A stretch of 64,000 nucleotides of DNA from an uncultured Eubacteriales bacterium (GCA_964541375.1 CAZIPT010000002.1:445-64444); one strand, 5' to 3'. Counted from the stretch's first letter, positions 17,584 through 40,894 are shown. The notes: generated by a model from the letters alone, not told the origin. Made by a program: numbers and translations.

Positions 17584-17744
17584 TTATGTCGGCATCATCC
17601 CAGCTCAGAGCCTCGCCAACACCTCACATTAGAGAATTCACAAGCAAGGCTGGTTCATTTGTTGCTACGCTCCGCAGTGTGAGTAATCGACACGCTCGAT
17701 AAACCGGCCGAGCGGTCGTTTGAGTTTTGAAGTGAGTGATTCGC

Positions 17745-19538
17745 ATGAAGGTAGTTCGTCGCTGTGCTGCGATGGCTCTATTCGCCGCGGTGATTTTGCA
17801 GGCGGGGGTCGGGGTGGCCGTTCCCGCACAGAGTGTCCGGGGGGTTTCCTTCTCGGACGCAACACACGGCTATCTCGCGGGGGGATACTCTGGTGACGAC
17901 GGCGTTGTCGCCTACACGGCCGATGGAGGCCTGAGCTGGAGACCCACTCAGCTTCCCAATCGGTACACGTGGGCGGTGGGCGCTTCCGCTGACGGATTGT
18001 CTGCGACCGCTGTTGCCTACTCCCAGGACGTAGCGATCACAACCTCAAACGGCGGGGTCAGTTGGACGGAGGATTCGCCGGTCTTCGGCGGCGTTCCCAA
18101 CTTCGGCGGGACGACTCAGATTAACGACGTCGCGCACTTGAGCGGCGGTCCTGTCGCCGTTGGTGGGCAGCAGGGAACCGCCACCTATGGGGATGTCGGC
18201 GCGATTTCGCGCAAGAGCGCCGGGCTCTGGGCACCGACATTTCGCCCGTTCTTTCTCCCGCTCGACGGTGGCGACCTTATCGGACCTATTCCTCAGCCGA
18301 CGTACGCCTCTCTGACCTCGATTGACGCCGCCCCCGGTGGCAACGTGGCACTTGCAGTTGGAACCTACACGGCCCCTCCCACCGCGCCCTACACCAACCC
18401 GCCCACGCCAGGGCCCCTTCGTACGATCGTGTATCGCACCGTCGACGGCGGGTCGACATGGACCACCGACACGGCGACTTCCGGAGCGCCTGCTTGGTCG
18501 CCTACAGCTGTGACCGCCGCTGACGCAGACGTCGCCTATGCCACGTTCTCCGCGGGTTCGCTCGGCAGCAATTACTTTCTGCGTAGATCTGCCGCCGGCG
18601 TCTGGACAAGGTCGGATCAGTGGATTGCATCCGGCTTCCTGTCGAACTCACTGGACGCATACGACGCGGATCACCTTGTGGTGGTGGGCAACCAGGGCAA
18701 GCTGTACTACACCGCGAACGCCTCTTCCGCCACACCGACATGGATCGCGCTTGCCACAACGGGTTCGGCCAACGATCTGTATGGCGTCCAAATGACCGGC
18801 CCCGATAGCTGGATCGTGGTGGGCGGCAACGAGACCATCGTCCGGTTCACCAACGCTGGAGCAAACCAGGCAGGCTCGTATGGACTTGGCGCACCGGTTC
18901 CCGTCATCACCTCTCACGCTTCCGGTTTCTCTCTCCCGGCCGGCTCCATAAGCGGTACTGCGTGGGACGCAGGCGTTGGTGTGCTGAAGGTCGAAGTCCG
19001 GATTCAGCGGGCCCTGGACAGCAAGTTCTGGAACGGCTCGACGTGGGTTGCTGACGCGACCCAATACAACCTTGCGAGCATGCCGACCAACACAACCTGG
19101 ACCTATCCGTTCGCGTCTGGCGAGATGTCGGCGCTTACCATCACGGTTCGTGCCACTGACGGGATGGGCCTCATGGCCACTACCGCCGTCAACTCGGTCG
19201 GCGTGCCTCCGGCTGCGCAGTCGGTCACTCTAGGAACGTGGACCAGTATCGCCGGCAAGAGCAGCGCGAAGGTTCGCAGGTCCTACACCGTGTCGGGTTC
19301 CATCTCGCACGCGGCTGCTCCGGGTGTCGTATCGATCACCATGCAGCGCAAGGTCGGCAGAAGGTGGAAGAACGCCGGAACCGCTCGCGTTGGCGTGTCC
19401 AACGGATCCTACCGCTACAGCTTCAAGCCGAGGTACAAGGGCTACTGGCGCTTCGTCTCGACGTATTCGGGTGGCACCTCCGGCCTAACGACTTACACGT
19501 CGTCTAGGAGCGGCACCAAGACCATCAGAGTGAAATAG
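17745..19538 (+). CDS. Exported BNR/Asp-box repeat (sortilin/Ycf48-like) beta-propeller protein with C-terminal beta-sandwich modules
   Basis: Signal peptide MKVVRRCAAMALFAAVILQAG. Asp-box motifs are TADGGLSWR, TSNGGVSWT and TVDGGSTWT. The C-terminal module is shared with the protein at 38226-39485. Confidence 0.7.
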   Translation: MKVVRRCAAMALFAAVILQAGVGVAVPAQSVRGVSFSDATHGYLAGGYSGDDGVVAYTADGGLSWRPTQLPNRYTWAVGASADGLSATAVAYSQDVAITTSNGGVSWTEDSPVFGGVPNFGGTTQINDVAHLSGGPVAVGGQQGTATYGDVGAISRKSAGLWAPTFRPFFLPLDGGDLIGPIPQPTYASLTSIDAAPGGNVALAVGTYTAPPTAPYTNPPTPGPLRTIVYRTVDGGSTWTTDTATSGAPAWSPTAVTAADADVAYATFSAGSLGSNYFLRRSAAGVWTRSDQWIASGFLSNSLDAYDADHLVVVGNQGKLYYTANASSATPTWIALATTGSANDLYGVQMTGPDSWIVVGGNETIVRFTNAGANQAGSYGLGAPVPVITSHASGFSLPAGSISGTAWDAGVGVLKVEVRIQRALDSKFWNGSTWVADATQYNLASMPTNTTWTYPFASGEMSALTITVRATDGMGLMATTAVNSVGVPPAAQSVTLGTWTSIAGKSSAKVRRSYTVSGSISHAAAPGVVSITMQRKVGRRWKNAGTARVGVSNGSYRYSFKPRYKGYWRFVSTYSGGTSGLTTYTSSRSGTKTIRVK

Positions 19539-19620
19539 CAGGCTCAGCCCGTCAGCCTGGCTCGACGACAAGACCCCCCTTGCATCGACGGCCAGCTCCG
19601 TGGCGTGTCAGGGCGCACGT

Positions 19621-19649
19621 TTGACACCGCACGAGTGCACCCCTAGATT
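19621..19649 (+). promoter_or_regulatory. Sigma-70-like promoter candidate for the TPR-NHL operon
   Basis: TTGACA-17 nt-TAGATT, located about 70 nt upstream of the 19721 GTG start. Confidence 0.45.
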
Positions 19650-19720
19650 CGGTGGGGTTCTTGCCACCCCGCGCTGAGTACCGTTGGAACCGGCCACTTC
19701 ACAAGGAAAGGAACCGCCGC

Positions 19721-20725
19721 GTGCCGAGCTTCAGGCAGATACGACCTCTCGACGCCGTGATCGTGGTCGTTGCTGTGCTCGTGGTGTTGGTCGGTGGCTA
19801 CCTGGGGTACTCGGTGTGGGCACAGAACAAGAGGATTCGAGATGCCTCGCCTTCGACTCGCGAAATCGCATCACTGACGGCGAAACTGCGCGCGAACCCC
19901 AACAACTTCGACACGCGCATGCGTCTGGCGCAAGCCTTCGCTGTGGCGGGTCGTGATGACGAGGCCATCGGGCAGTACAAGGCGATTCTCAAAGTCAACC
20001 CGAGCTTTGTTCCGGCGCTCTCGGGCGTGGGATTTGAGTATCTCAAGCAGAAGAAGTGGAAGGAGGGGGAGGGCTACTTCCGCAAAGTCGTCTCCCTCAC
20101 CGAGAAGGACACGACCAGCGTCGGTTCGAGTCCGCTGGAAACGGCCTACTTCTACTTGGGGATCGCTCTGATGGAACAACGGAAGTACGAAGAGGCCGTC
20201 GGTTTCTTGAAGGGGGCGCTCCGGCTGCGCCGCGACTCGGCGGACGCCAGCTACGCTCTTGCTGTGAGCTATCGAGAGCTCGGAATCATGGACGGCTACG
20301 AGGAGTATCTCCTCTACACGCTGAAGTTCGACCCCAACATGGCCGAGGCCAACTACGACTACGGCATGCTGCTGCTGTCCAAGAAGGACCTGGCCTCGGC
20401 GGCAGAGTACTTCAGGCGCTCGGTCCACGCTGCGCCCGGCGTCGACAAGCCGCAGATCGAACTCGACAAGCTCGGCAACTTTGATGATCGTCTCGCTGAG
20501 GCCAAGAAGCTCAAGCCGACCGACCCCGCAAAGGCGCTGGTCGAGGCGCGGATCGCTTCTGCGCTCGATCCGCAGTCGGTCGAGGCGCTTGCGCTTGTCG
20601 GGGAGCTCTACGAGGCCACCGGCCAGCGCGACAAGGCGGCCGAGGCCTACCGAGAGGTCCTGGTGCTTGAGCCCGGCAACGCATTGGCGACTGAAGGGTT
20701 GAAGCGGGTGTCCAATGGATCCTAG
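19721..20725 (+). CDS. Membrane-anchored TPR-repeat protein
   Basis: GTG start with AAGGAAAGGAA upstream. There is one N-terminal TM helix (AVIVVVAVLVVLVGGYLGY), then several TPR-like units (AEANYDYGMLLLSKKDLASAAEYFRRSV, etc.). Confidence 0.75.
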   Translation: MPSFRQIRPLDAVIVVVAVLVVLVGGYLGYSVWAQNKRIRDASPSTREIASLTAKLRANPNNFDTRMRLAQAFAVAGRDDEAIGQYKAILKVNPSFVPALSGVGFEYLKQKKWKEGEGYFRKVVSLTEKDTTSVGSSPLETAYFYLGIALMEQRKYEEAVGFLKGALRLRRDSADASYALAVSYRELGIMDGYEEYLLYTLKFDPNMAEANYDYGMLLLSKKDLASAAEYFRRSVHAAPGVDKPQIELDKLGNFDDRLAEAKKLKPTDPAKALVEARIASALDPQSVEALALVGELYEATGQRDKAAEAYREVLVLEPGNALATEGLKRVSNGS

Positions 20726-22301
20726 TCAGATACCGGCTCCGACGGTTCCAGCCGAGGCCCCGGCCGGGTCTGGATTCGGTTCTCGCATTCCACCGTCGCA
20801 GCAGAGGGACCCCAGCAAGCTGACGGGGCCGGAGCGTCGACGGCGCATCGTGCTGCTTACGTTCCTGCTCCTCCTGTTGGCGATCCTCGCCTACGTCGCC
20901 TACTACTACAGTCAGAACAAGCGGCTTCCGTCCCTTGGGGTTGCACCCCCTGGGGCCACGGCGATCACCCCGCCTCAGTTCCTCTTCGCGTTCTCCGGCG
21001 AGGGCGCCAACACGCTCAAGCGCCCCGTCGGCGTCGCTGTCGGCCCTGACGGACGCGTCTACGTCGTCGACTTTGGCAACAAGCGCGTCAGCGTGTTCTC
21101 CAGCCAAGGGCGCTTCCTGTCCTCCTTCGACACGCTTTCCGACGGCAAGAAGCTGACTAACCCGGTTCATCTGGCAATCAAGGGCAACGAGGTTTGGGTC
21201 ACCGACCGCCGGCTGCGGAGCATCAGCATCTTCGACCTCAACGGCAAGTTCCTTCGCACGTTCGAGCCCAAGAACGAGAAGCTGACCTGGACGCCGCTCG
21301 CGCTTGGTTTTGACAACAAGGGTCAGCTTCGCGTCACAGACGTTGGTGACACCAAGAATCACCGCGTCGTCTACTTCTCGGCCGACGGCTCGCGAACAGC
21401 CATGTTTGGGAAGACCGCTCAGGTCACTCGGCCCAGCGATTCCCCGGGTGAGTTCCTGTTCCCCAACGGGGTCGCGGCCGACAAGAAGAACAACATCTAC
21501 ATCTCTGACGGTAACAACCGACGGATTCAGGTGTTCTCTCCGGAGGGCACCTTCAAGAGCTTCATCGACGCAAGCGGAATCCCTCGCGGCATCGCCATAG
21601 ATGATCGCGAGCGCCTGTACGTAGTTGACGCGTTGGCCAACGACGTACGGGTCTTTGGCGTCAAAGGCCAGACCTTGACGCAGTTCGGCTCGCGCGGGTT
21701 CGGGCCGGGTCAATTCAACTACCCGAACGACATCGCGCTTGACGCACGCGGGCGCATCTACGTCACCGACCGAGAGAACAACCAAGTCCAGGTTTGGGGC
21801 TGGCCCGTCGCCGCCCTCCCGGCCATACCGCTGCCGAGCAAGCCGCTGTACTGGCTGCTGTGCCTCTCGCCGCTTCTCCTGTTGCCGCTGCTTGTGCGCA
21901 GGCGCAAGACCCGCATCATCGTCACGCCTGACTTCGTCGACGCTCTCGCCGAGGTGCAGGAGATTGCGGCCGTGGCCGCCAAGTCCCGCCTGCGCCTGAT
22001 CGCGCCCATCGAAGACGAGCCCCTCTATCAGGGTCGTGTCGTGGAGGGCGTTGTGCTGAGCGACCTCATCAGCTTCGAGGAGCACTCTGAGTCCGACGTT
22101 CGCAGCCTCATCGAGAAGCTGCAGGTCACGGAGCGCCAGGCGATTCTGATATCCATGACCTGGAGGGCGAAGGCGCTTGCGACCCAGGATCGGGAGCTGA
22201 GATGGCTGGCGGTGCTCGCTGAAGTCCGAGCGGTGAACGTCGAAGAATTCAGGTCCGTTTATCTGGGTAGGGAAGTCAATAAGGAAAGTGCGACTTTGTA
22301 A
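20715..22301 (+). CDS. NHL-repeat beta-propeller protein flanked by two TM helices, with an unassigned ~150-aa C-terminal tail
   Basis: The ATG overlaps the TPR gene by 11 nt. NHL-type repeats include GVAVGPDGRVYVVDFGNKRVSVFS, GIAIDDRERLYVVDALANDVRVF and DIALDARGRIYVTDRENNQVQVW. TM1 is near aa 45-65 and TM2 is LYWLLCLSPLLLLPLLV. Confidence 0.75.
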   Translation: MDPSQIPAPTVPAEAPAGSGFGSRIPPSQQRDPSKLTGPERRRRIVLLTFLLLLLAILAYVAYYYSQNKRLPSLGVAPPGATAITPPQFLFAFSGEGANTLKRPVGVAVGPDGRVYVVDFGNKRVSVFSSQGRFLSSFDTLSDGKKLTNPVHLAIKGNEVWVTDRRLRSISIFDLNGKFLRTFEPKNEKLTWTPLALGFDNKGQLRVTDVGDTKNHRVVYFSADGSRTAMFGKTAQVTRPSDSPGEFLFPNGVAADKKNNIYISDGNNRRIQVFSPEGTFKSFIDASGIPRGIAIDDRERLYVVDALANDVRVFGVKGQTLTQFGSRGFGPGQFNYPNDIALDARGRIYVTDRENNQVQVWGWPVAALPAIPLPSKPLYWLLCLSPLLLLPLLVRRRKTRIIVTPDFVDALAEVQEIAAVAAKSRLRLIAPIEDEPLYQGRVVEGVVLSDLISFEEHSESDVRSLIEKLQVTERQAILISMTWRAKALATQDRELRWLAVLAEVRAVNVEEFRSVYLGREVNKESATL

Positions 22302-22421
22302 CACTTGCCGCAATCTCCCTTGAGGTGTACGGTACGGATGCGGGGTCTGCGTCTTGCAGGCCAGCTGTCAGGGTCCGGCAACCCGGCGCGAACCGCACTT
22401 GAAATCAGAAGAACAGCGCGA

Positions 22422-22519
22422 TCTCCGAGCCTCTCTGCCTACGGCGCCTCCGGCGCTAGGGCACCCAGGCCGTCGGGTTTCACCGGAAACAGTGGAGCCT
22501 CCCTTCCTTGGAAAGGAGA
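22422..22519 (+). ncRNA. Candidate Moco (molybdenum-cofactor) riboswitch aptamer
   Basis: Conserved blocks as I recall them from the Moco RNA motif and E. coli moaA leader: CUCCGAGCCUCU, GCACCCAGG and GCCUCCC-N6-UGGAAAGGAG. A P1 helix UCUCC(22422-26)/GGAGA(22515-19) is possible. It lies about 275 nt upstream of a molybdoenzyme gene. Confidence 0.6.
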
Positions 22520-22793
22520 ACGCATCCGGCCGGAACGTCCGCTCGCGGGCGATTCCTTTGCGATGCGTTGTTCTTCGGGGTAAGGAGATCGTCAAAATGT
22601 TGTGTTCTCGAACCGGACCACTGTCTGGGCCTCACTTGGCCTTGCGGTGCTTCGGTTCTTCTTTTTGGGGGCTTCCGATCGGCGATCGCAGCGTGAAGGG
22701 AGGGTCGACCTCCTAGCTGCTGGCGTTCCCATCTGCTGCACGACGGAAGCCGCGACTGATCTTCTGCTTCAACTGAGAGAGAGGGATGGAGGA

Positions 22794-25700
22794 ATGGCAA
22801 CTAAAGACACCGGGCAACCGGCCAACGGGATAAGCAGACGCGCGTTTGTGACCTCGGCGGCCGTTGCTGCAACGGCAGCCGGATGCGGGTTCGAAGTCGC
22901 GTTTGACGCCGCTAAGGCACTCGCCTACGAGAGTTCGACAGACTACAAAGTCACAAACACCACGTGTCCCTACTGCTCTGCCAGCTGCGGACAGCGTGTC
23001 GTTACTGCGCTCACCGGCGCGAACGCTGGCAAGGTCGTCGACATCTACGGTGACTTCGAGTCCCCGATGAACTCCGGCGGACTGTGCGCCAAGGGCGCGG
23101 GCTCGCTGCAGCTTGTCAACAACCCGTACCGTATCGGTGCGTGGGAGACCACGCATCCCGTCAATTCCGTGTTCGCCGCCAAGCCGGCCGCCACGACGTT
23201 CGGGGCGAGTCCGACCGGCTGGACCGGGCCGGCGTACACGGGTAGCGGCTACACCTACGGCGGCGGCGTGGCCTACTGGCGTCTCGGCGATGAACCGTGG
23301 AACCCAGTCCCGCTCGACGTCGCAATGGCTGATATCGCTGGCAAGCTCAAGACGGCCCGCGAGTACGACACCGCGCGTTGGGACGAAGCCAACGGCAAGA
23401 CCTTCAATAGCAAGAGCGTTGCGTTCTTCGGTTCGTCTCACATGAACAACGAGATGAACTACGTATACCGCAAGATCATCGCGAACTTCGGTACGAGCAA
23501 CGTCGAGCATCAGGCCCGAATTTGACACAGCTCCACGGTGGCCGGTCTGGCCGCCGCATTCGGTCGCGGTGCAATGACGAACCATTGGCAGGACATCGCC
23601 AACTCGACCCTGGTAGTTGTGTGGGGAGCCAACCCGTCTGAGAACCATCCGGCGTGCATGGCCCACATAAACCGGGCGAGGTATCCCAAGCAGTTCTTTG
23701 CGAGCAGCGACGCCAGGTCGAGCAAGCAGGCCGCCCGGATGATCGTGATCGATCCGCGGAAGAACCGCACCGCCCAGCAGGCTGATGACTACGTACGCAT
23801 CCGCCCTGGGACGGACATCGCGTTCCAGAACGGTGTGATCAAGTACATCATCGACCAGATGGAGTCTGGGACGAGCGTCTCGACGGCTGCCAAGACCGCG
23901 TTCTTCGCCTATCTCAACCAGACTGGGAACGGCACTTTCTACACGGACGGCAGCGCGTCTCTCCAGAGCAAGACCTCGGCGACCGTCGCCGGTAGCGCGA
24001 AGTACACCGACGCGCGGTTCTTGGTCAACGGCACCGACACGGACTATGTCCGCGGGTCAGTGAACACCCTTGGGGCAGTCGCCACCACGGAGACCGCGGA
24101 GAACACGATCTCGAACTTCCCCACCAAGTCCACCAACTGCCAGACCGGCAATACGGTGTACAACCGCCTCAAGGCGCACGTCGCGCCGTACACGACGGCC
24201 AAGGTAGTCGAGATATGCGAATGCGCCGACACCGATATCTCACTGGTGGGCGACGCGATCATTGCCAACAGCCGTTGCTCGAGCGTGGGCAAGGCCTTCG
24301 TGGATAAGAAGATGAAGGTCCGCTTCACACAGACGGCCGGTTTCCAGAATGGTGCGGCCACCACAGCGCAGGACGCCATACCGCTGTGGGCATCGGGCGT
24401 CACGGTCTCAAGTGTGACCAGCCTCGATGGCCTGACAAACTACTCGAATGGGACCGACTATACCTTCGCGGCAACCGGGACCATCACGCGCGTGGCGACG
24501 GGGACGATTCTCGACAAGCAGGTGTGTCTTGTCACGTACTCCGGTACCACGGACCAGGCACCGCAGGACACCTACCGTGCGACGACGATTCTCTACGCGA
24601 TGGGCATCACGCAGCACACCTGCGGCTCCCAGAACGTCAAGGGCTTCGCCAACCTGCAGGGGCTCATGGGCAACAATGGACGCGCTGGCGGTGGCATCAA
24701 TGCGCTGCGTGGCATCCACAACGTTCAGGGCTCGACCGACATGGGCCTGCTTTACGGCAACATCCCCGGTTACTCGAACAATCCGTCCGAGCAGCCGGCG
24801 GAGGTCGTGACGCTGACTGGGACTACGGCGGTTGCCCTGCAGTGGAAGAACTACGACAACACCGCGGTCACTATCACGGCCGTGCAGTCGGATGCGTCCG
24901 TGATCTACGCGGCCACCGACTACGACCTCGTAGTAAACGGTAGCGGGTACACGACGATCGCTCGGAGCGCCACGTCCACCATTGCTGACGGCGCCACCGT
25001 CTACGTGAGCTACACCCACGCGATATCGGCCACGGCAGCCGGCCCGGCAAAGGTCTACAACGCTTTTGGCCGCTACGTGAATGCGCTGTGGGGCCTGCCA
25101 GTGCACGGTACCGCCGGACGTTCTCAGATGAACCTCAGCTACGACGATGCTTACACCACTACTGGTGGCATCATGCAGCTGCAGCAGCGTGGCTTCTACA
25201 ACATGACGCTGAAGTGGTTCGGTGACTACGCGACGTACGGGACCGCCGCGCTCAGCAGCGCCAAGAGGACCGCAATCGACGCGACGTACGGGCTGTGGCC
25301 AAAGGGCAACGGCGACAACCACATCAAGATGTTCCGCAACATGGCCTCCGGCAGCGTGAAGGCCGCGGTCGTGTGGGGACAGAACCCCGCCGTCACCGAG
25401 CCCAACCAGAGCAAGATCCGCGACGGGCTACACGAGCTCGACCTTCTGGTGGTTGCCGACATGTTCGAGACGGAGACCGCCGGGTGTGGCCGCAAGGCTA
25501 CCGGCGTCACGTATCTCCTCCCGGCTGCCTCGCATGTGGAGAAGGCCGGTTCGGCGACGAACTCCGGTCGAGTCCTGCAGTGGCGCTACAAGGCGATCGA
25601 TCCGGTCGGCAACTCCAAGGACGACCTTGAGTTGCTCCTCCGCTTCGCGCGCGCACTCAACGACGCCCACTGCTTCAAGCACATCGAGACCGCCAATGGC

Positions 25701-27011
25701 TGGACCGCCGACACGGCCTACACCAAGCTCTACGCCACCCCTTACGGCTGGGACCCCAAGGCGACCATCGCCAGCGTCGGGAACTCGACCGACTTCAAGC
25801 TGGCCGGCAACCTGTCGAGTGCCGCGATCGACTTCGCGACAGTTGGCGTGACGGTCGGGGACGGCACCACCTATGCGTCGCTCGTTCCCTCCGCAGACAC
25901 CAGGGTCAACGGTGCAGAGTTCGTCGCCGAGATGATCTTCCGCGAGTGGGCGGCCGGCAATGGCAGCACGGGTGCGGGCATCTACACGACGCCCAACGGC
26001 ACGACGACTTCGGGCGGCACGCTCTGGATCTACGTCGAGGGATACGATCAGTCCGGCAAGACCGGGCGTCTCTATCCCGAGTACACTGACTGGGGAGTGT
26101 TCAACCGTTCCAAGAGCCGCGATCGCCAGGATCCGTACGGCGTGCTTGCCACCCACAAGTGGGGCTACTGCTGGCTCGTCAATCGTCGCGTGTTCTACAA
26201 CAACAACGAGATCGCCGGCGACCAGCCGGACTTCTTCATGAGTCCCGACTCGTGCACGCGCCTCTTCGCGCCCGATGTCACGCAGCCCGCATGGACTCCC
26301 ACGGGCAGCACGATCTACAACTACGCGCGTTGGTACCGGACGATCGGCGCTCCCACCAAGCACGTGCTTGCAGACAAGCCGCTCTTCAGTAACGGTTTGA
26401 AGCCGAGCGTCCACGTCGTCCCCGGACGGTTCCCGTCTCACGTGGAGCCCTACGAGACGCCGTCGCCCGCGATCGCCGATGACCCGACCAACGGGTTCGG
26501 CTACAACTCCACACTCGACACCGCCATCAATGCGGTCGGAGCCAGGAACCTCCTGTACTCGGGCTCAGCGGTCGGCACGTCGAGCACGTACCCGCTCGTT
26601 CTGACTACCGTCCGGTGTGTGGAGCACTTCCAGGGTGGCCCGATCACCCGTAACAACTGGTTCAACGTCGAGCTCGAGCCGCAGCCGTGGATCGAGATCA
26701 ACTCGGCGGACGCACGTATTGCAGGAATCAAGGACGGCAACATGGTACGAGTCGTCACTGCCCGTGTTGCCGACAATGCCGGCAACTTCGTGAGTCCGGC
26801 CAACTACGGCCAGGGGTTCATCGCACGTGTCGGCAGTGGTCTCTCCGCAGGTCAGAAGGTCGCCGCCGGCGTCGTTGCGATTCCGTGGCACTGGGGAGAG
26901 AAGGGTCTTTCGACCGGCTCCCGCGCCAACGACCTCACCATCGACGCGATGGACGCGAACACCACGATTCCAGAGTTCAAGGCCTGTCTTTGCCGCATCG
27001 AGAAGATATAG
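22794..27011 (+). CDS. Tat-exported Mo/W-bis-MGD oxidoreductase catalytic subunit, FdnG-like formate dehydrogenase, with selenocysteine encoded by the in-frame TGA at 23523-23525
   Basis: Twin-arginine signal GISRRAFVTSAAVAATAAG. N-terminal Fe-S motif CPYCSASCGQ...GGLCAKG. ORFs 22602-23525 and 23538-27011 are in the same frame and are separated only by a TGA. The junction reads EHQARI-U-HSSTVAGLAAAFGRGAMTNHW, close to E. coli FdnG NQARVUHGPTVASLAPTFGRGAMTNHW. The conserved ALRGIHNVQG Arg is present. The gene has 1405 codons. Confidence 0.85.
23523..23555 (+). promoter_or_regulatory. UGA-Sec recoding site with SECIS hairpin
   Basis: UGA CAC AGC UCC ACG GUGGCC GGUCU GGCCGCC. The stem is 7 bp (one G-U pair). 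The apical GGUC begins 19 nt after the UGA, the same loop sequence and spacing as I recall for E. coli fdhF (UGA CAC GGC CCA UCG GUU GCA GGUC UGC). Confidence 0.8.
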
Positions 27012-27024
27012 GGAGGTGTGACCG

Positions 27025-27990
27025 ATGACTGTTATGGCAATCCTGCAAGACGTCGACAAGTGCATGAGATGCAACGGGTGCGTAACGGCCTGCAAGCGTG
27101 AGTGGAACCTCAAGCTGCCGACCGATATCTCCCAAGTGATCCCGCAGAAGTCAATCGTCAACCCGCGTCAGCGCCTCGCTATCAAGAGCCTGCGGCGCGG
27201 AGACATGGGACCGCACATGAGGTTTTCGTGTTGGCACTGCCCTGATGCCCCGTGCATCAAGGAGTGTCCGCGCGGTGCGATCAAGCAAGAGGCAACCGGT
27301 GCCGTCAGTGTGAACACCGGGCTGTGCGCACCGACTCTCTGCAAGGCGGGCCCCGGCCCCAGGCCTTGTGAGATCGGCTGCCAGCAGGGTGGGTATCCCA
27401 AGGTGGGTCCTGCCTACGAGACCGGTCAGTATGCCGGTCAGGTCAAGATGAACAAGTGCACGCTCTGTACCGGTCGCGCCGGAGCCGACGGTGTCGTAGA
27501 CGCCGCCACCGCTCTGCCGACCAGGTCGACCAGAGTCCAGACTTCGGTCGATCCCGCTCCCAAGACGTACGTCTGGCCGAGTCCTTTGGTGCTCCCGAGT
27601 GGCGGAACGCTGACCGATGTCAACGTCCCTGAACTCGCCCACGAGCCGGCGTGCGTCTCGTCGTGCCCCGCGAAGGCCATGAAGTGGGACTCCAAGGCCA
27701 ACATCCTGAAGTACCTGCAGGACCCGGCCAACGGATACACCCTGGCCGGCGGCACGCAGAACTGGATCGGCAACGGCGGCGTCTACTGGGCGTCGAGGAA
27801 CACCAGGATTGTTCCGCCGAAGGCCGACCCGTTCGTCGAAGATCACCTCACGCCCATGGTGAGCAGCGTGGTTTCAGGAGGCAGCAAGCTCATGATTCCG
27901 GCTCTGCTGCTCGGCGGTTTCGCAGTGGTCTCCATGCGGCGCACCAAGGTTCAGGCCGAAGCCAACGATCTGTCAGCAAGGGAGGTGTAG
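27025..27990 (+). CDS. FdnH-like 4Fe-4S cluster subunit with a C-terminal TM anchor
   Basis: GGGAGGTG lies upstream. Ferredoxin motifs are CMRCNGCVTAC, CWHCPDAPCIKECP, CTLCTGR and CVSSCP. The C-terminal helix is LMIPALLLGGFAVVSM. Confidence 0.85.
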   Translation: MTVMAILQDVDKCMRCNGCVTACKREWNLKLPTDISQVIPQKSIVNPRQRLAIKSLRRGDMGPHMRFSCWHCPDAPCIKECPRGAIKQEATGAVSVNTGLCAPTLCKAGPGPRPCEIGCQQGGYPKVGPAYETGQYAGQVKMNKCTLCTGRAGADGVVDAATALPTRSTRVQTSVDPAPKTYVWPSPLVLPSGGTLTDVNVPELAHEPACVSSCPAKAMKWDSKANILKYLQDPANGYTLAGGTQNWIGNGGVYWASRNTRIVPPKADPFVEDHLTPMVSSVVSGGSKLMIPALLLGGFAVVSMRRTKVQAEANDLSAREV

Positions 27991-27996
27991 GACCGC

Positions 27997-29280
27997 ATGA
28001 AAGCTTCACGACTCTTCTTCGCAACTGTCCTCGTCGCCCTTGCCGCACTGGCATTGCCGACGGCCGCGTTCGCGAACTTCGCGATTCACGGCAACTATCT
28101 GAAGGACACCGATGCGTGTGCCGGTTGTCACCGCGCACACACGTCAGTCAGCACCATCGGCTGGACCGATGCCAATAACAATCAGCACTCTTCAGCTCTG
28201 CTGGTGACATCTGCAACTGAGATGTGGCAGTTCTGCTACGCCTGCCACGACGCTACGAGCCAGGGTGCCGATACCAACGTTCAGCAGGGTATCTGGGAAG
28301 GCGACTCAACCTACGGGACTCCCGGCGGTCTTCTCAACGGCGGCGGTTTCGACTCGCTCGCCGAGACGGCCACAACGTCGACGCACATGTACAAGGGCTC
28401 TTCGTGGGGCGCGTACGGCGGAGGTTACGCCGGTAACACCAAGGCGCAGAACTACGGTATAGCCGCCGACGGCAGCACGGCTGGGCAGGGCGCCAACGCG
28501 TTCATGACCGGCACCGGCAACTCCATCAAGATGGATTGCGCCAGCTGTCACGACCCGCACGGGAGCGCGAACTACCGCATCCTGAAGGCCGTCGTCAACG
28601 GCAATCCTGTCGGTGGCTATGGTCCAGGCAACGGACCGGGCGGGGCGCAGGATCCCAACCCCAACGGTTTCGTCTCTTCTGTCGAGACCGGCTGGCCTGT
28701 TAACGGCTTCCGACTCCACACGCAGTATCCCGAGTACAAGCCGAACTACACGACCCCCATGTACGCCAGAGGCTACGACATGGGAACCTTGACCACCGCC
28801 ACTGCGGGACCCACCAACGTGGACAAGGGCATGAGCGGTTGGTGCGCTGGTTGTCACAGCACGTATCTGGGACAGCTGTCCGGCGTTCCGGCTAGCTTCG
28901 CCACAACGTACAACGCTGGTGACGGCGGCGGCCTCGCAGTTCGTCACAAGCACCCGATCAACGTGCCTCTGACCAACTACGAAGGCCCGGACGCGGCCAA
29001 CATGGTCAAGGACAGCTCATCTGGCCTGCCTTTGGCTCATGGCAAGAACGAGCAGGGTAACCCAGTTACCAACGAGGACGACTGGATCGAGTGTCTGACC
29101 TGCCACCGTGCCCACGGTACGGCAGCTTCGATGAGCGGCTGGGCATCCAATGCCGGAGCCGCATCAGTCGTAGGTACTGACGGGCTTGCCTCCAACAAGT
29201 TTGTTGCGGCCGGCGCCGTTCCGTCAGCACTGCTTCGCTATGACAACCGTGGCGTCTGCGAAAGGTGCCACAACAAGTAG
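27997..29280 (+). CDS. Secreted hexahaem c-type cytochrome
   Basis: GGGAGGTG lies upstream. It has a Sec signal peptide and six CxxCH motifs (CAGCH, CYACH, CASCH, CAGCH, CLTCH, CERCH). Confidence 0.85.
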   Translation: MKASRLFFATVLVALAALALPTAAFANFAIHGNYLKDTDACAGCHRAHTSVSTIGWTDANNNQHSSALLVTSATEMWQFCYACHDATSQGADTNVQQGIWEGDSTYGTPGGLLNGGGFDSLAETATTSTHMYKGSSWGAYGGGYAGNTKAQNYGIAADGSTAGQGANAFMTGTGNSIKMDCASCHDPHGSANYRILKAVVNGNPVGGYGPGNGPGGAQDPNPNGFVSSVETGWPVNGFRLHTQYPEYKPNYTTPMYARGYDMGTLTTATAGPTNVDKGMSGWCAGCHSTYLGQLSGVPASFATTYNAGDGGGLAVRHKHPINVPLTNYEGPDAANMVKDSSSGLPLAHGKNEQGNPVTNEDDWIECLTCHRAHGTAASMSGWASNAGAASVVGTDGLASNKFVAAGAVPSALLRYDNRGVCERCHNK

Positions 29281-29312
29281 GCTCGCCAGAGCGAAGATTC
29301 TTGGTATCGTCG

Positions 29313-29342
29313 GAAGGGTCGGGGGTGAAACCCCGACCCTTC
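29313..29342 (+). terminator. Strong hairpin after the cytochrome gene (terminator or attenuator)
   Basis: GAAGGGTCGGGG-GTGAAA-CCCCGACCCTTC, a perfect 12-bp stem 33 nt after the stop. The downstream run is TCTCTCG, so the U-tract is poor. Confidence 0.6.
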
Positions 29343-29393
29343 TCTCGACGTAGGGTTGTTTCGGCAGAGATGCGATGCAACAGAAGGAGCCCG

Positions 29394-30833
29394 GTGAACG
29401 CTCGTCTCGTCACTGCAGCGGTGTTCTCGGCCGCCGTGCTGAGCACCCTCTCGTCGTTCCTCGTGACGACGGTCGCCATGGACTCGCTTCCCGACGCCGT
29501 GCTTGTGGGTGTCAGCACGGTCGTCGCGTTCCTGGTCGTCGTCACAGCGGGAGGCTGGCGGGTCGCCGAGCAGATCCGTGGCCTGGAGCGGACGACACTC
29601 GCGCTCGCACTTGTTGGAGGGGCGCTGACCTTGTGGGCGGCCCCCTTCCTCGCTCTGTCCCAGCGTGCAACAAGCGCCCCCTCGGGCGCTGACTCGCTCT
29701 TCTTCACCACGACCCTCTGGAGCGTTCTGGTGGTGTTCGGCGCGTATGTGATCCGGACCCAGCGCCCCGCTCTGACCGCTATCGCCGGCGCCGTGTGCGC
29801 GGCAGCGGGTGCCATGGGGCTGCTCGCGAGCTGGGAGTATCCGAGTTCGTTCGCACCGTTCGCGAAGTTTCCTGTCCGAGAGTCACTCATGTTGGTCGCC
29901 GGAGTCCTTTTCGCGGTCGGCATGCTGGCCCTTACTGAGGCCGCGCGAAGGATCGGTGCTCGCTACGCGGCGACGTTGGGTCTGGGCGGGGCTGCGGTGC
30001 TCGGCACGCTCGCCTGCCTGCCGAGGCTTCCTGCGGTAGTCTCGGCAGGTGTCTCGGCGTGGAGGCCCAGCATCTATCTCGGCGTGATCACGGCCGTGTT
30101 TGCGGTGAGCTTGCTGTGGACGGCCGCTCAGGTGGGAGCCGCACGTGCCTCAGCAGCGCTGCTGTTGGTTGCTCCCGCGATGACGGCGTTATCGGCGTAC
30201 GAGCAGGCCACCTCGGTCTACGGAGTGCTGCCGTTCGCCATGCGTGGGGTGTTGACGGGTTCGGCGATCGTGGTGGTCGGAGCGGCTGTCCTCTGGCTGT
30301 CTGAGCTCGACAGGAAGCCGTCTCGTGCACTCCGTGACAGGGTCACCGCAGCTGCTCTGTGGGTTGCGGTCGGGTCGTGCGCGCTTGCGGCCGTCTCACT
30401 GGTCACTCCGGCGCTCGACGCGCTGTCGGAGGGCCACATAACCGCGACCTTCCGCGCGGCGTGGGTGATGCTCGGCTACGAATCGGCCGCCGGCTGGATG
30501 CCGGTCGCGGCAGCGCTGCTGGCACTCGCGGCCGTACTCGAGGCCCGCCGCGGGCAGGAGGCGCGCGCCTGGGTCGCGGCGTCTGCGGCGGTGTTCGCCT
30601 GCGCGCTCGCGATGACGCTTCTCTCGGCGACGACGATCCACACCTGGAATAGCTGGGTCCCAGCCGAGGTCCAGCAGACATACGGCACGGAGTATGCTCG
30701 CTTGTCGGTATCGGCCATCGTCGATCCCGTGAGGGTAGGAGCGATGGCGCTCGCTGTTGTCTCGGCAGGTCTGCTCGGGCTGTCTGCCGCTCAGGACGCC
30801 AGAACCGCTCGTTCAACGGAAGCAGGTTCGTGA
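29394..30833 (+). CDS. Polytopic integral membrane protein (about 12 or more hydrophobic segments), unassigned
   Basis: GTG start with GAAGGAG 5 nt upstream (alternative ATG at 29370). The composition is Ala/Leu/Val-rich. There are only two His residues, so it is not an FdnI-type dihaem cytochrome b. Confidence 0.6.
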   Translation: MNARLVTAAVFSAAVLSTLSSFLVTTVAMDSLPDAVLVGVSTVVAFLVVVTAGGWRVAEQIRGLERTTLALALVGGALTLWAAPFLALSQRATSAPSGADSLFFTTTLWSVLVVFGAYVIRTQRPALTAIAGAVCAAAGAMGLLASWEYPSSFAPFAKFPVRESLMLVAGVLFAVGMLALTEAARRIGARYAATLGLGGAAVLGTLACLPRLPAVVSAGVSAWRPSIYLGVITAVFAVSLLWTAAQVGAARASAALLLVAPAMTALSAYEQATSVYGVLPFAMRGVLTGSAIVVVGAAVLWLSELDRKPSRALRDRVTAAALWVAVGSCALAAVSLVTPALDALSEGHITATFRAAWVMLGYESAAGWMPVAAALLALAAVLEARRGQEARAWVAASAAVFACALAMTLLSATTIHTWNSWVPAEVQQTYGTEYARLSVSAIVDPVRVGAMALAVVSAGLLGLSAAQDARTARSTEAGS

Positions 30834-31684
30834 TGAGGTCCAGTCACGCGATGAAGGTCTCGCTGGCGCTCACCTTGGTGCTGCTCACGACCTTGTCGGC
30901 GACAGGCTGTCAGCGCAAGGTCGAGGTCCAGTCCGGTACGCGCACCGTGTGCACCTCGGGAGAGGTCATTTCCGACAACGTCACGACCATCAAGGTGCCC
31001 GCGAACAAAGCTGGCGCCTACCGAGTGAACACCGTTGTGGTGACGTGCGACAAACATGCGAAGGCGCCGACGCTCTACGCGGAGGCCCAGACCGCGCTGG
31101 CTGCCGGCGACACGAAGCTCGCCGCATCCAAGCTCGCCCAGGTCCTTGCGCTCGATCCGACGTACCGCAAAGCCAAAGAGCAGGCCGCTTCGATCGCCAA
31201 GGGCGGCAAGCCAGCGCCTGACACGACGCCCGCCCCCAGTGCTCCGACCACCGTGACAACGCCGATCACGCCTCCCAAGCCTGGTGAGGATCCAGGGACC
31301 GTCGGCGCGCTGGGAAAGTGGACGCCCGACACTATCACGGGTTTTGCGGCGGGCAAGGTGCTGTCGGATGCGCTGACCGTGTCTCGCGAGTACGTCCCAA
31401 CGGGCTCCTCGCCAACCAAAGGACTGGTGATCGTAGCCGAGCAGTTCCGCACCGCTGCAGACGCGAAGCGCGGTGTAGAGCAGCAGGTCAAACGGACCCA
31501 TGGCAAGGACGCGGCGACGCTCAGTGTCAACGGGCACGACGCGTACTTTGGGACCGATGGCCGACGGTTCGCGGCGATCGGCTTCACCGACGGCGCGGTG
31601 ATGGTCGCACTCGAGCTGACCACGGACAAGTCGCCCCAGAACCTACGCTCACTCGCCGAGCAGGTCGCCAAGCAGCTGCCCTAG
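30830..31684 (+). CDS. Lipoprotein with a TPR-like helix pair, a Pro/Thr linker and an unassigned C-terminal domain
   Basis: The start (GTG 30830 or ATG 30833) overlaps the upstream TGA. Lipobox LSATGC. Confidence 0.6.
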   Translation: MMRSSHAMKVSLALTLVLLTTLSATGCQRKVEVQSGTRTVCTSGEVISDNVTTIKVPANKAGAYRVNTVVVTCDKHAKAPTLYAEAQTALAAGDTKLAASKLAQVLALDPTYRKAKEQAASIAKGGKPAPDTTPAPSAPTTVTTPITPPKPGEDPGTVGALGKWTPDTITGFAAGKVLSDALTVSREYVPTGSSPTKGLVIVAEQFRTAADAKRGVEQQVKRTHGKDAATLSVNGHDAYFGTDGRRFAAIGFTDGAVMVALELTTDKSPQNLRSLAEQVAKQLP

Positions 31685-32923: not shown

Positions 32924-33108
32924 ACGAGTGCCTCCTACGTTCGGGCACCACCGTTTCGGCGCCCCCATGAGTGTTCGCGCACCATAGTATGCAACCCACA
33001 AGCCATGGGTGCGAGTTGTAACTATTGTTGCTGAAAGAGACTGAAGTCACTTCAGGTCGAGCTGCGACGGCACGGGCTCGGCGTGCGGGTACACTGGATG
33101 CAAAGGAG

Positions 33109-40370: not shown

Positions 40371-40894
40371 GCGGGGGAATTGCACTGAGTGGGCAAGCAG
40401 CATTTCAATCATCCTGTCGGTCTCTGAGACGCAACGAACCCGGTCCCTCTGGCGCACTTACGCCGTCAGGGCCAGGTCCGAAATCTCAGAGCCAGCAGTC
40501 CTACGGCAACCCGGCTGTCATGGGGAGTCCGTGAGGATTCCCTTTAGACCCGTGGCTTTGCGAAGCCGGCTTTCACCGGCGGTGCCTTTGTCACTAAGAG
40601 GAGAGTCGCTGCTTTTCTCTTTTCAACGCACCTATCTATTCGGCAGAAAAGGGCTCCGACTTGAGGCGCCGGCGAGGCGCGATGGTTGCCGTCTTGTGAG
40701 ATACGTCACAGAGAGACACGCTCGGCGCCGTTGTCTTTCGCAATCCGGAGCGTTTGCGCAGGTGCGCAGCGAAGGCGGCCGTTCACCACAAGCCACGGCG
40801 CGGTGAGGTGCGCTCGTAGCGCGCCTCAGGCATTGACTAGGTGCGTGACGACAAAGCATGGCTTTCGAGCTGGGGGCGAGCGGTGCCGACCTGT

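What the first reader, a model, noticed from the sequence alone, without database searches (positions are those of the whole stretch)
22422..22519. Candidate Moco riboswitch in the leader of the selenocysteine molybdoenzyme operon
The ~490-nt non-coding leader contains, in order, CUCCGAGCCUCU, GCACCCAGG and GCCUCCC-UUCCU-UGGAAAGGAG. These match the conserved blocks I recall for the Moco RNA motif: the E. coli moaA leader has CUCUAGCCUCUGCACCUGGG ... GCCUCCCGUAUCUGGAAAGGUG. A closing helix UCUCC/GGAGA can form. The element is only ~100 nt long, shorter than the E. coli aptamer. Regulski et al. noted that short representatives lacking one stem are associated with tungsten-cofactor genes, so the enzyme could be W- rather than Mo-dependent (inference). 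Here the motif controls a cofactor-using enzyme rather than biosynthesis, a context where switch polarity is not settled.
Basis: partly seen in the sequence, partly recalled or inferred. Interest (0 to 1): 0.65.

Follow-up and report, generated by a model that had tools for sequence, protein, structure and literature searches.

The report
Tungsten/molybdenum-cofactor riboswitch before formate dehydrogenase operon
The flagged stretch is a genuine member of the known molybdenum/tungsten-cofactor riboswitch family, of the short form linked to tungsten, sitting in front of a selenocysteine formate-dehydrogenase-like operon of an uncultured Coriobacteriia bacterium; it is a sound but largely ordinary annotation, with an unusually elaborate leader around it.

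Summary
Confirmed. Rfam RF01055 (Moco RNA motif) matches window 22411-22535 (+) at 65.1 bits against a gathering score of 36 (E 2e-13).

The same P3-less aptamer sits about 250-280 nt upstream of the orthologous gene in 64 of 73 related Coriobacteriia/Actinomycetota loci. Most of the rest are cut off upstream. P1, P2 and P4 show compensatory changes.

The gene downstream is a Tat-exported, selenocysteine, formate-dehydrogenase-like Mo/W-bisPGD enzyme. It is followed by an FeS subunit, a multihaem cytochrome and two unknown proteins.

- a hairpin with a CCGGCA loop;
- the aptamer;
- hairpin H1;
- a near-invariant GGGGUAAGG(G)AG block that is antisense to the aptamer's 5' core;
- a strong intrinsic terminator;
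- a conserved ~130-nt domain before the start codon.

Polarity cannot be read from this leader: I found no RNA antiterminator. Two orthologous leaders (L055, L066) build their terminator out of the aptamer's 3' half, which is an ON design. I therefore favour activation by the cofactor (about 0.6).

W versus Mo is undecided. The case for W is suggestive only.

Verdict: new member of a known kind.

The parts
22371..22384 (+). Hairpin H0 (GGGU / hexaloop CCGGCA / ACCC), upstream of the aptamer
   Evidence: A hairpin carrying a CCGGYA motif lies 31-56 nt upstream of P1 in 40 of 66 leaders, against about 0.15 expected per region. The stems differ in sequence but still pair.
22411..22535 (+). Moco/Wco-class riboswitch aptamer (Rfam RF01055 match), P3 absent
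   Evidence: 65.1 bits against a gathering score of 36, E 2.2e-13, full model 1-135 with the P3 columns deleted. It scores 94.4 bits with my clade model R1.
22421..22426 (+). P1 5' strand AUCUCC; pairs with 22515-22520
   Evidence: Rfam alignment. P1 is 96% paired across 33 leaders, and 3 of its 6 pairs show changes on both sides.
22429..22470 (+). P2 (GCCUCUCUGCC ... GGCACCCAGGC) with an internal CCUA.../...UAGGG receptor-like loop and apical hairpin 22443-22457
   Evidence: Rfam alignment. 6 of 11 P2 pairs have double changes. CCUA is invariant.
22475..22500 (+). P4 with GAAA tetraloop (22486-22489)
   Evidence: Rfam alignment. 6 of 11 pairs have double changes, and the GAAA loop is all but invariant: one of 33 leaders has GUAAA.
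22501..22520 (+). P5 mini-hairpin CC...GG, the AAA junction and the P1 3' strand GGAGAA (22515-22520)
   Evidence: GCCUCCC and GGAAAGG are invariant in 33 leaders.
22519..22576 (+). Hairpin H1. Its pyrimidine 3' base (GUUCUUC, 22570-22576) can pair with the P1 3' strand when P1 is open
   Evidence: H1 arms co-evolve (cognate against non-cognate duplex energy, p = 4e-8). The 3' base against the P1 3' strand gives p = 4e-4. In 33 of 66 relatives the H1 loop carries CCGGCAA. In the window the motif is CCGGCCGG inside the stem.
22577..22593 (+). Anti-aptamer block D: GGGGU-AA-GGAGAUCGUC, antisense to 22417-22433 (GCGAUCUCC-GA-GCCUC)
   Evidence: GGGUA[AG]G is present in 60 of 66 leaders, 27-71 nt after the aptamer, with variant forms in L020, L043 and L060. 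It pairs with the P1 5' strand in the window's MFE fold. The flanks co-evolve with the 5' flank of P1 (p = 3e-6).
22597..22716 (+). Possible 39-codon upstream ORF (AUG 9 nt after GGAG), running through the terminator. Doubtful
   Evidence: It is present in the window. A start codon in the right place occurs in only about two thirds of leaders, whole clades have none, and the frame and peptide are not conserved.
22610..22666 (+). Intrinsic terminator T: stem 22610-22631 / 22638-22658, loop 22632-22637, U-tract UUCUUUUU 22659-22666
   Evidence: A ~20-bp stem followed by a U-rich tail was found in all 33 leaders examined. The arms co-evolve (p = 1e-10) with compensatory variants such as GACCGG/CCGGUC, GACCAG/CUGGUC and GGAUCGG/CCGAUUC. 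It was not picked up by the simple scan because the stem is long.
22667..22793 (+). Conserved post-terminator domain: GGCUUCCG 22670-22677 pairs with CGGAAGCC 22744-22751; SD-like GAAGGGAGGG at 22695-22704; ribosome-binding region AGAGGGA...GGAGG at 22780-22792
   Evidence: The length is conserved at 121-153 nt. The blocks GCUCCCG, GGAAGGAGG and GGGAGC are conserved. The first and third covary (window CUUCCG/CGGAAG, L047 CCCUC/GAGGG). In the folds the U-tract and pyrimidine region often pairs with the ribosome-binding region.
22794..27011 (+). Catalytic subunit: Tat signal (SRRAFV), Fe4S4 domain, Sec (TGA 23523-23525), formate-dehydrogenase-like Mo/W-bisPGD enzyme; 1405 codons with large insertions
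   Evidence: The Sec-His and ALRGIHNVQGSTDMG motifs are present.
23536..23556 (+). SECIS-like hairpin CGGUGGCC-GGUCU-GGCCGCCG, starting 13 nt after the UGA
   Evidence: TGA and a GGUY motif in the expected place after it are present in all 62 orthologues found; the hairpin sequence itself was printed for five of them.
27025..31684 (+). Rest of the operon: HybA-like 4Fe-4S subunit (27025-27990), multihaem cytochrome c (27997-29280), and two proteins with no family match (29265-30833, 30830-31684)
   Evidence: The same gene order is seen in L075 and L076.

Best explanation
Window 22411-22535 is the ligand-binding domain of a Moco-family riboswitch of the P3-less subtype that Regulski et al. (2008) proposed senses the tungsten form of the cofactor (Tuco/Wco). 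It lies in the 5' leader of an operon for a Tat-exported, selenocysteine, formate-dehydrogenase-like enzyme with its FeS and multihaem partners, in an uncultured Coriobacteriia-type actinobacterium.

Shown: family membership, the helices, conservation upstream of orthologues, and a downstream near-invariant block (22577-22593) complementary to the aptamer's 5' core (the P1 5' strand plus the base of P2).

Inferred mechanism: without cofactor, this anti-aptamer strand captures the P1/P2 5' strands, while the freed P1 3' strand pairs with the pyrimidine base of hairpin H1. With cofactor, the aptamer is locked and the block is released.

Output (inferred, least certain): cofactor binding turns the operon ON, so the apoenzyme is made only when its cofactor is available. 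This would work either by relieving termination at the strong terminator (22610-22666) through a step I could not identify, or by freeing the ribosome-binding region through a relay of pyrimidine and purine boxes in the post-terminator domain.
For: Identity:
- RF01055 scores 65.1 bits against 36.
- Across 33 leaders 85% of cells are paired, 17 pairs have double changes, 0 of 500 shuffles reach the observed values, and slid controls give 34-47% paired.
- The aptamer is found in 64 of 73 related loci, always on the gene's strand and, where I measured it, some 190-290 nt (mostly 240-280) upstream of the start codon.

Context: Sec-FDH-like enzyme.

Anti-aptamer:
- The block is in 60 of 66 leaders.
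- It pairs with the P1 5' strand in unconstrained folds of the window and about a third of its relatives (12 of the other 32 leaders folded).
- Cognate duplexes are stronger than non-cognate ones: -13.3 against -10.2 kcal/mol; p = 3e-6.
- The block is more exposed when P1 is forced: 0.41 against 0.29 unpaired, p = 9e-4.

ON polarity:
- In L055 and L066, which carry the orthologous operon, the terminator's 5' arm is the aptamer's own 3' half (CCGGCGCCUCCC pairing with GGGAGGUGUCGG, then a run of U). Aptamer and terminator are therefore mutually exclusive.
- Forcing P1 slightly lowers the cost of blocking T: 18.4 against 19.7 kcal/mol, p = 0.002.
- Forcing P1 slightly opens the ribosome-binding region: 0.54 against 0.49 unpaired, p = 0.06.

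W form:
- P3 is absent.
- Regulski's correlation (PMC2408646).
- The closest solved structures are 1H0H and 6SDR, which I recall as W/Sec enzymes.
Against: - No segment co-evolves with either terminator arm apart from the other arm.
- T remains about 18-20 kcal/mol favourable in both states. At the level of nested RNA structure the terminator therefore looks unconditional, and the link from aptamer to output is missing.
- The polarity argument rests on two divergent relatives with a different platform and on small thermodynamic trends. In the window itself the accessibility of the ribosome-binding region does not change (0.40 against 0.44).
- No ligand binding can be shown here.
- No W- or Mo-specific gene was found among the window ORFs I scanned.
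- The margin of W-FDH over Mo-FDH structures is only 241 against 232 bits.
Confidence: 0.6

Rival explanations
1. Same riboswitch, opposite polarity. Cofactor binding represses the operon (OFF switch), as in E. coli moaA. One rationale would be that the tungsten form shuts down an enzyme that uses the other metal.
For: The only experimentally characterised member (E. coli moaA) is an OFF switch, and Regulski et al. raise repression by Tuco for some enzyme genes (PMC2408646). A terminator follows the aptamer. In a few unconstrained folds the terminator's 5' arm pairs with aptamer segments freed when P1 is open (L053, L005, L044).
Against: No conserved or co-evolving antiterminator involves the P1 3' strand or any aptamer segment. 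T is, if anything, harder to block in the ligand-free state. The L055/L066 variants of the same operon have an ON design. Repressing a cofactor-dependent enzyme by its own cofactor makes little physiological sense.
Confidence: 0.27
2. The aptamer senses the molybdenum form (Moco), or does not discriminate between the metals, and the enzyme is Mo-dependent. On this view absence of P3 is only a lineage trait.
For: Selectivity of P3-less RNAs has never been shown biochemically. The correlation in Regulski et al. is genomic and has exceptions. E. coli Mo-FdnG (1KQF) is nearly as close as the W enzymes (232 against 241 bits). No tungstate transporter was found among the window ORFs I scanned.
Against: All 64 orthologous leaders are P3-less. 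P3-less RNAs correlate with tungsten use. The top structural relatives are W/Sec FDHs.
Confidence: 0.35
3. The released GGGGUAAGGAG block acts as a ribosome-binding site. When the aptamer is ligand-bound, a ribosome loads there and translates the short ORF 22597-22716. By covering the terminator's 5' arm it prevents termination (riboswitch-controlled leader-peptide attenuation).
For: UAAGGAG followed 9 nt later by AUG, with an ORF spanning the terminator, is present in the window. A start codon 16-25 nt after the start of the block occurs in about 66% of leaders, against roughly 38% expected (my own estimate from the listing). It would supply the missing link to T.
Against: Whole clades have no AUG/GUG/UUG there, or have ORFs of 1-6 codons. 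The frame relative to the terminator differs, and the peptide is not conserved. The block's invariance is already explained by complementarity to the invariant aptamer core.
Confidence: 0.15
4. Chance resemblance or a decayed relic with no regulatory role.
For: None beyond the absence of an identified antiterminator.
Against: E = 2e-13. The element is conserved with compensatory changes in 64 loci whose proteins are only 35-73% identical.
Confidence: 0.02

Closest known systems
Moco RNA motif, P3-lacking subtype (Rfam RF01055; 'Tuco'/'Wco' riboswitch of Regulski et al. 2008 and the Breaker-lab tandem-riboswitch review of 2022)
   Same: Full-length covariance-model match. P1, P2, P4 and P5 are present, with a GAAA tetraloop and a receptor-like P2 bulge. 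The invariant CCGAGCC, GCCUCCC and GGAAAGG are present. P3 is absent. It lies upstream of a cofactor-using enzyme rather than a biosynthesis operon, as reported for Wco representatives.
   Different: Nothing in the aptamer. The surrounding leader may be lineage-specific: I found no description of the flanking CCGGCA-loop hairpins, the anti-aptamer block complementary to the 5' (not 3') side of the aptamer, the separate long terminator, or the 130-nt post-terminator domain in the papers I read.
E. coli moaA Moco riboswitch (P3-containing, translational OFF switch)
   Same: Same family and the same conserved core. The P1 3' strand is a GGAG-type purine run.
   Different: E. coli has P3, controls biosynthesis genes, hides the ribosome-binding site inside P1, and does not respond to tungstate (PMC2408646). 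Here the start codon is about 275 nt downstream of P1, and a terminator intervenes.
pbuE (ydhL) adenine riboswitch: transcriptional ON switch in which the terminator uses part of the aptamer (from my own knowledge; cited as ref. 9 in PMC9481103)
   Same: The L055/L066 leaders of the orthologous operon use this logic: the terminator's 5' arm is the aptamer's 3' half.
   Different: A different aptamer class. In the window's own leader the terminator does not overlap the aptamer.
Periplasmic W/Sec formate dehydrogenases of Desulfovibrio (PDB 1H0H, 6SDR) and E. coli FdnGHI (1KQF)
   Same: Tat signal, Fe4S4 domain, Sec-His and the RG(x)HNVQG arginine motif, and an FeS partner subunit.
   Different: The window's subunit has 1405 codons and carries large insertions that most relatives lack. 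It scores far below the NCBIfam cut-offs for FdnG (355 against 814 bits). It is partnered with a multihaem cytochrome and two unknown proteins.

Membership tests
Moco RNA motif (Rfam RF01055) | Covariance-model score at or above the curated gathering score | tested here: met
   65.1 bits against 36; E 2.2e-13; model positions 1-135.
Moco RNA motif (Rfam RF01055) | Helices P1, P2, P4 and P5 maintained by compensatory changes | tested here: met
   Across 33 orthologous leaders 85.4% of cells are paired, 17 of 34 pairs have changes on both sides, 0 of 500 shuffles reach the observed values, and slid controls give 34-47% paired. P5 (2 bp) never varies, so it is uninformative.
Moco RNA motif (Rfam RF01055) | GNRA tetraloop on P4 and a receptor-like bulge in P2 | tested here: met
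   GAAA at 22486-22489 (the loop's G is GU in one of 33 leaders, otherwise unchanged). CCUA is invariant, with ...UAGGG/...AUGG opposite. Docking itself is not testable here.
Moco RNA motif (Rfam RF01055) | Conserved unpaired core nucleotides (CCGAGCC, GCCUCCC, GGAAAGG) | tested here: met
   Invariant in all 33 aligned leaders.
Moco RNA motif (Rfam RF01055) | Located in the 5' leader of a gene for Mo/W cofactor synthesis, transport or use | tested here: met
   Same strand, with P1 ending 273 nt before the start of a Molybdopterin/Molybdop_Fe4S4/Molydop_binding protein. The same holds in 64 related loci.
Moco RNA motif (Rfam RF01055) | Cofactor-dependent control of expression, or ligand binding | not testable with these tools
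   Needs reporter, termination or probing assays. The ligand is unstable and was not shown to bind directly even in the founding paper.
P3-lacking ('Tuco/Wco') subtype | Absence of the P3 stem | tested here: met
   The P3 columns are deleted in the Rfam alignment. All 64 strong orthologous hits fit a P3-less model end to end at 118-135 nt.
P3-lacking ('Tuco/Wco') subtype | Host carries tungsten-specific genes (tupA/B, wtpA), or the regulated enzyme uses W | tested here: inconclusive
   No such gene was found among about 40 ORFs of the 64-kb window. The rest of the genome is not available. The nearest solved structures are W/Sec FDHs, but by a small margin.
Transcriptional riboswitch with intrinsic terminator | Terminator hairpin followed by a U-tract, downstream of the aptamer | tested here: met
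   22610-22666. Present with co-evolving arms in all 33 leaders examined.
Transcriptional riboswitch with intrinsic terminator | A mutually exclusive antiterminator that links aptamer state to terminator formation | tested here: not met
   No segment co-evolves with either terminator arm. T is favoured by 18-20 kcal/mol in both states. The feature is met only in the variant leaders L055 and L066. Pseudoknots and protein or ribosome factors were not testable.
Selenocysteine formate dehydrogenase (FdnG/FdhA type) | In-frame UGA at the catalytic position with a SECIS hairpin; Sec-His and the catalytic Arg motif | tested here: met
   ARI-U-HS and ALRGIHNVQGSTDMG. A hairpin with a GGUCU loop starts 13 nt after the UGA. 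TGA is conserved in 62 of 62 orthologues. Scores are below the NCBIfam equivalog cut-offs, so the substrate is inferred, not shown.

The most novel reading that the evidence does not exclude
The roughly 430-nt leader is a composite regulatory RNA of a kind I did not find described in the papers I read. A tungsten-cofactor aptamer acts as an ON switch through an anti-aptamer strand directed at its 5' side. Terminator bypass then depends on the two flanking hairpins with the self-complementary CCGGCA loop, through kissing or pseudoknot contacts with the CCGG base of the terminator, or through a protein that binds them. That would be a non-nested antitermination mechanism invisible to standard folding.
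Probability: 0.15. Interest if true: 0.65.

Novelty: new member of a known kind. Interest (0 to 1): 0.4.

Why it matters
This is a clean, deeply conserved example of the P3-less Moco-family riboswitch placed before a cofactor-using enzyme, not a biosynthesis operon. About 65 natural sequence variants are now in hand, including two with an unambiguous ON-type platform.

That makes two open questions experimentally approachable:
- whether riboswitches of this family activate apoenzyme synthesis when cofactor is available;
- whether loss of P3 really switches selectivity from the Mo to the W form.

It also marks this enzyme family of uncultured Coriobacteriia, with its multihaem partners, as probably tungsten- and selenium-dependent. 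That bears on their cultivation and on formate-linked extracellular electron transfer.

As an annotation it is ordinary: any Rfam scan finds it.

Tried and rejected
1. Leader peptide after the SD-like block. A start codon is missing in whole clades, the ORFs differ in frame and length, and no peptide is conserved. I kept this only as a minor rival.

2. RNA antiterminator.
- I folded each leader truncated before the terminator's 3' arm, with and without P1 forced. The partners of the 5' arm are inconsistent.
- A cognate-versus-non-cognate duplex test on 44 segment pairs found co-evolution only for T5:T3, the H1 arms, the P1 5' flank with the anti-aptamer flank, and the H1 base with the P1 3' strand.
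- The cost of blocking T is nearly the same in both states.

The pairing of GCUCCC with GGGAGC rests on inspection only.

4. Kissing of the CCGGCA loops, either with each other or with the CCGG base of the terminator. Only 17 of 66 leaders have both loops. Leaders whose terminator lacks CCGG still have the loop (L029, L054). There is no covariation either way, so this is not supported and not excluded.

5. Search for W/Mo transport, cofactor or selenium genes in the window: none in about 40 ORFs.

6. Metagenome scan with GGAAAGGRG-N25-55-GGGTARGG, meant to find the same platform in front of other gene types. That scan is spent.

7. Literature on polarity for enzyme-associated Moco/Wco RNAs: nothing explicit in PMC2408646, PMC1950547 or PMC9481103.

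Full report
**Observation.**
- CUCCGAGCCUCU at 22423-22434;
- GCACCCAGG at 22461-22469;
- GCCUCCC-UUCCU-UGGAAAGGAG at 22497-22518.

A scan of the whole window against Rfam 15 at gathering thresholds returns two matches. One is RF01055 (Molybdenum/Tungsten riboswitch aptamer, Moco RNA motif) at 22411-22535 on the + strand. It scores 65.1 bits against a gathering score of 36, E = 2.2e-13, and covers model positions 1-135. The alignment shows P1 (AUCUCC 22421-22426 with GGAGAA 22515-22520), P2 with its internal loop, P4 capped by GAAA, the two-pair P5 and the AAA junction. The columns of P3 are deleted.

**Context.**
- The upstream ORF, an NHL-repeat protein, ends at 22301. The next gene starts at 22794, so the intergenic leader is 492 nt.
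- That gene has a twin-arginine signal (SRRAFV), a Molybdop_Fe4S4 domain, and an in-frame TGA at 23523-23525 within ARI-U-HSSTVAGL. It then has Molybdopterin and Molydop_binding domains and the ALRGIHNVQGSTDMG motif.
- The best NCBIfam matches are formate dehydrogenase alpha subunits, but far below the equivalog cut-offs.
- A hairpin, CGGUGGCC-GGUCU-GGCCGCCG, starts 13 nt after the UGA. All 62 orthologues I could parse have the TGA and a GGUY motif in the expected place after it; the hairpin sequence itself was printed for five of them. From my own knowledge, the GGUCU loop matches the E. coli fdhF SECIS.
- Downstream are a HybA-like FeS protein, a multihaem cytochrome c, and two proteins with no family match.
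- Homologues are almost all from Coriobacteriia, Anaerosomatales or Actinomycetota MAGs.
- The order cytochromes - TPR - NHL - [leader] - alpha - FeS - cytochrome - unknown - unknown recurs in L075 and L076.
- The closest solved structures are 1H0H and the 6SDR group, followed by E. coli FdnG at 241, 237 and 232 bits. I recall 1H0H and 6SDR as the W/Sec enzymes of Desulfovibrio gigas and D. vulgaris.

**Conservation.** A genome scan with a profile of the catalytic subunit gave 73 related loci.
- A strict regular expression found the motif at the same relative place in 31 of them.
- A covariance model built from 33 leaders (R1) then found it in 64 loci at 77-112 bits, always on the gene's strand.
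- Two weaker hits, L055 and L066, also pass the Rfam threshold.
- Most of the loci without a hit are truncated too close to the gene. L034 has room but no hit.
- L020 carries two paralogous operons, each with its own aptamer.
- On the 33-sequence alignment, 85% of cells are standard pairs and 17 of 34 pairs have changes on both sides. No shuffle out of 500 reaches the observed values, and structures slid by 1-3 columns give only 34-47% paired.

**Literature.**
- Regulski et al. 2008 (PMC2408646) report 58 of 176 representatives without P3.
- They find a near-perfect correlation of P3-less RNAs with organisms and genes of tungsten-cofactor metabolism.
- The E. coli P3-containing RNA does not respond to tungstate.
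- Both RBS-sequestering and terminator platforms exist.
- A 2022 review lists 'Wco' riboswitches upstream of genes unrelated to cofactor synthesis (PMC9481103).
- None of these papers settles polarity for enzyme genes.

**Anatomy of the leader.** Aligning 26 leaders and then parsing all 66 shows much more than the aptamer. In order:

1. In 45 of 66 relatives there is a palindrome, TGTAAC-N4(5)-GTTAC(A/G), 56-102 nt upstream of P1. These account for 45 of its 52 occurrences in 1.08 Mb. The window keeps only one half-site, at 22290-22296.
2. A hairpin, H0, usually has the hexaloop CCGGCA (window 22371-22384). It is present in 40 of 66.
3. The aptamer.
4. Hairpin H1 (22519-22576). In 33 of 66 leaders its loop carries the same CCGGCAA motif.
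5. A near-invariant block, GGGGUAAGG(G)AG (window 22577-22593). It is present in 60 of 66, with variants in three more.
6. A long intrinsic terminator (22610-22658, followed by UUCUUUUU). It was found in all 33 leaders examined, with compensatory variants.
7. A domain of 121-153 nt with conserved blocks GCUCCCG, GGAAGGAGG and GGGAGC. In the window these are GGCUUCCG 22670-22677, GAAGGGAGGG 22695-22704 and CGGAAGCC 22744-22751.
8. The ribosome-binding region and AUG.

**The invariant block is an anti-aptamer.**
- In the unconstrained fold of the window, GGGGU-AA-GGAGAUCGU pairs with GCGAUCUCC-GA-GCCUC, which is the 5' flank, the P1 5' strand and the base of P2. At the same time the freed P1 3' strand pairs with the pyrimidine 3' base of H1.
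- The block's invariance thus follows from that of the aptamer core.
- The variable flanks co-evolve. Cognate duplexes average -13.3 against -10.2 kcal/mol for non-cognate pairs. The paired test gives p = 3e-6. A fixed-register count shows excess pairing at the first three flank positions.
- The H1 base against the P1 3' strand also co-evolves (p = 4e-4).
- This defines a four-strand exchange. In the bound state P1 forms and the block is free. In the free state the P1 5' strand pairs with the block, and the P1 3' strand pairs with the H1 base.

**What the free block does is not resolved.**
- No segment co-evolves with either terminator arm except the other arm.
- Partners of the terminator's 5' arm in truncated folds are inconsistent.
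- Blocking the terminator costs 18.4 kcal/mol with P1 forced and 19.7 kcal/mol without (p = 0.002). The terminator is therefore strongly favoured in both states.
- A leader ORF behind the SD-like block exists in the window (22597-22716) but is not conserved.
- With the full leader, forcing P1 opens the block (0.41 against 0.29 unpaired, p = 9e-4). It opens the ribosome-binding region only marginally (0.54 against 0.49, p = 0.06), and in the window itself the value does not rise (0.40 against 0.44).
- Folds of the post-terminator domain often pair the U-tract and pyrimidine region with the ribosome-binding region. A relay of pyrimidine and purine boxes from the block to the start codon is therefore conceivable but untested.

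**Polarity.** The most informative evidence is a natural variant. In L055 and L066 the orthologous operon carries a GCAA-tetraloop version of the aptamer. There the terminator's 5' arm is the aptamer's own 3' half: CCGGCGCCUCCC pairs with GGGAGGUGUCGG, which is followed by AUUUUUU. This stem encloses the helix between the H1 base and the P1 3' strand. Aptamer and terminator are mutually exclusive, so ligand binding must allow read-through. Three things together lead me to favour ON at about 0.6, OFF at about 0.27, with the rest unresolved:
- this variant;
- the small trends;
- the logic of making an apoenzyme only when its cofactor exists.

**W versus Mo.**
- For W: absence of P3 in all orthologous leaders, the published correlation, and the slightly closer W/Sec structures.
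- Against a firm call: no tup, wtp, mod or moa gene among about 40 scanned ORFs of the window, no access to the rest of the genome, and no biochemical proof anywhere that P3-less RNAs select W.

**Dead ends.**
- RNAalifold on the post-terminator region returned nothing.
None of the 80 loci read back carried the aptamer.

**Verdict.** This is a new member of a known riboswitch class, which any Rfam scan would annotate. It sits in a conserved and unusually elaborate leader whose output logic is still open. Interest is moderate.

Noticed in passing
window 40502-40596 (-): A c-di-GMP-I riboswitch (RF01051, 71.7 bits against a gathering score of 35). It lies upstream of an unknown 314-aa gene (39513-40457, -) and a tandem-95-repeat, adhesin-like gene (38226-39485, -), next to an exopolysaccharide cluster of glycosyltransferases, a Wzc-type kinase, a flippase and a priming transferase.
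   Followed up: partly
L002-L074, 56-102 nt upstream of P1; window half-site 22290-22296: A perfect palindrome, TGTAAC-N4(5)-GTTAC(A/G), occurs in 45 of 66 orthologous leaders. These are 45 of its 52 occurrences in 1.08 Mb. It is presumably the operator of a transcription factor; from memory, the TTGT-N10-ACAA layout recalls Rex-type operators. The window has only one half-site, overlapping the stop codon of the NHL gene.
   Followed up: partly
window 22371-22384 (H0); H1 loops in relatives, e.g. L046, L019, L038: Two hairpins flank the aptamer and carry the same self-complementary loop motif, CCGGCA(A). It is upstream in 40 of 66, downstream in 33 of 66, and on both sides in 17. The stems covary. 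The function is unknown; a kissing contact, a protein site, or a contact with the CCGG base of the terminator are all possible.
   Followed up: partly
window 22667-22793: A conserved structured domain of about 130 nt lies between the terminator and the start codon. It has an SD-like GGAAGGAGG box with no ORF behind it, and a long-range pairing of GCUCCC with GGGAGC that covaries (window CUUCCG/CGGAAG). No Rfam family matches it at gathering thresholds.
   Followed up: partly
window 22794-27011: The catalytic subunit has 1405 codons. Most homologues (about 900-1050 aa for the post-Sec part) align over only about 56% of the query in the best local alignment. The window's clade therefore carries several hundred residues of Thr/Ser/Gly-rich insertions of unknown role.
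   Followed up: no
window 29265-30833 and 30830-31684: Two operon genes (522 and 284 aa) match no Pfam or NCBIfam family. Genes of similar size sit in the same position in L075 and L076.
   Followed up: no
window 17736-22301; L075, L076: A TPR protein and an NHL-repeat beta-propeller protein, preceded by multihaem cytochromes in relatives, sit directly upstream of the leader in several loci. In L076 a second TPR-NHL pair precedes a NiFeSe hydrogenase. This suggests a recurrent module attached to exported redox complexes.
   Followed up: no
L020 2542-2669 and 9688-9814: One MAG contig carries two paralogous copies of the operon about 7 kb apart, each with its own P3-less aptamer. The first copy has a variant anti-aptamer block, GGGGUGCAGGGGGAC.
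   Followed up: partly
L055 6089-6260, L066 6090-6262: Divergent leaders of the orthologous operon. The aptamer has a GCAA tetraloop and a long insertion in place of the P2 receptor. The terminator is built from the aptamer's 3' half, which is an ON-switch design.
   Followed up: yes
window 31730-33001 (-): A radical SAM/SPASM protein, most similar to AhbD/NirJ-type haem-modifying enzymes, lies convergent to the end of the operon.
   Followed up: no
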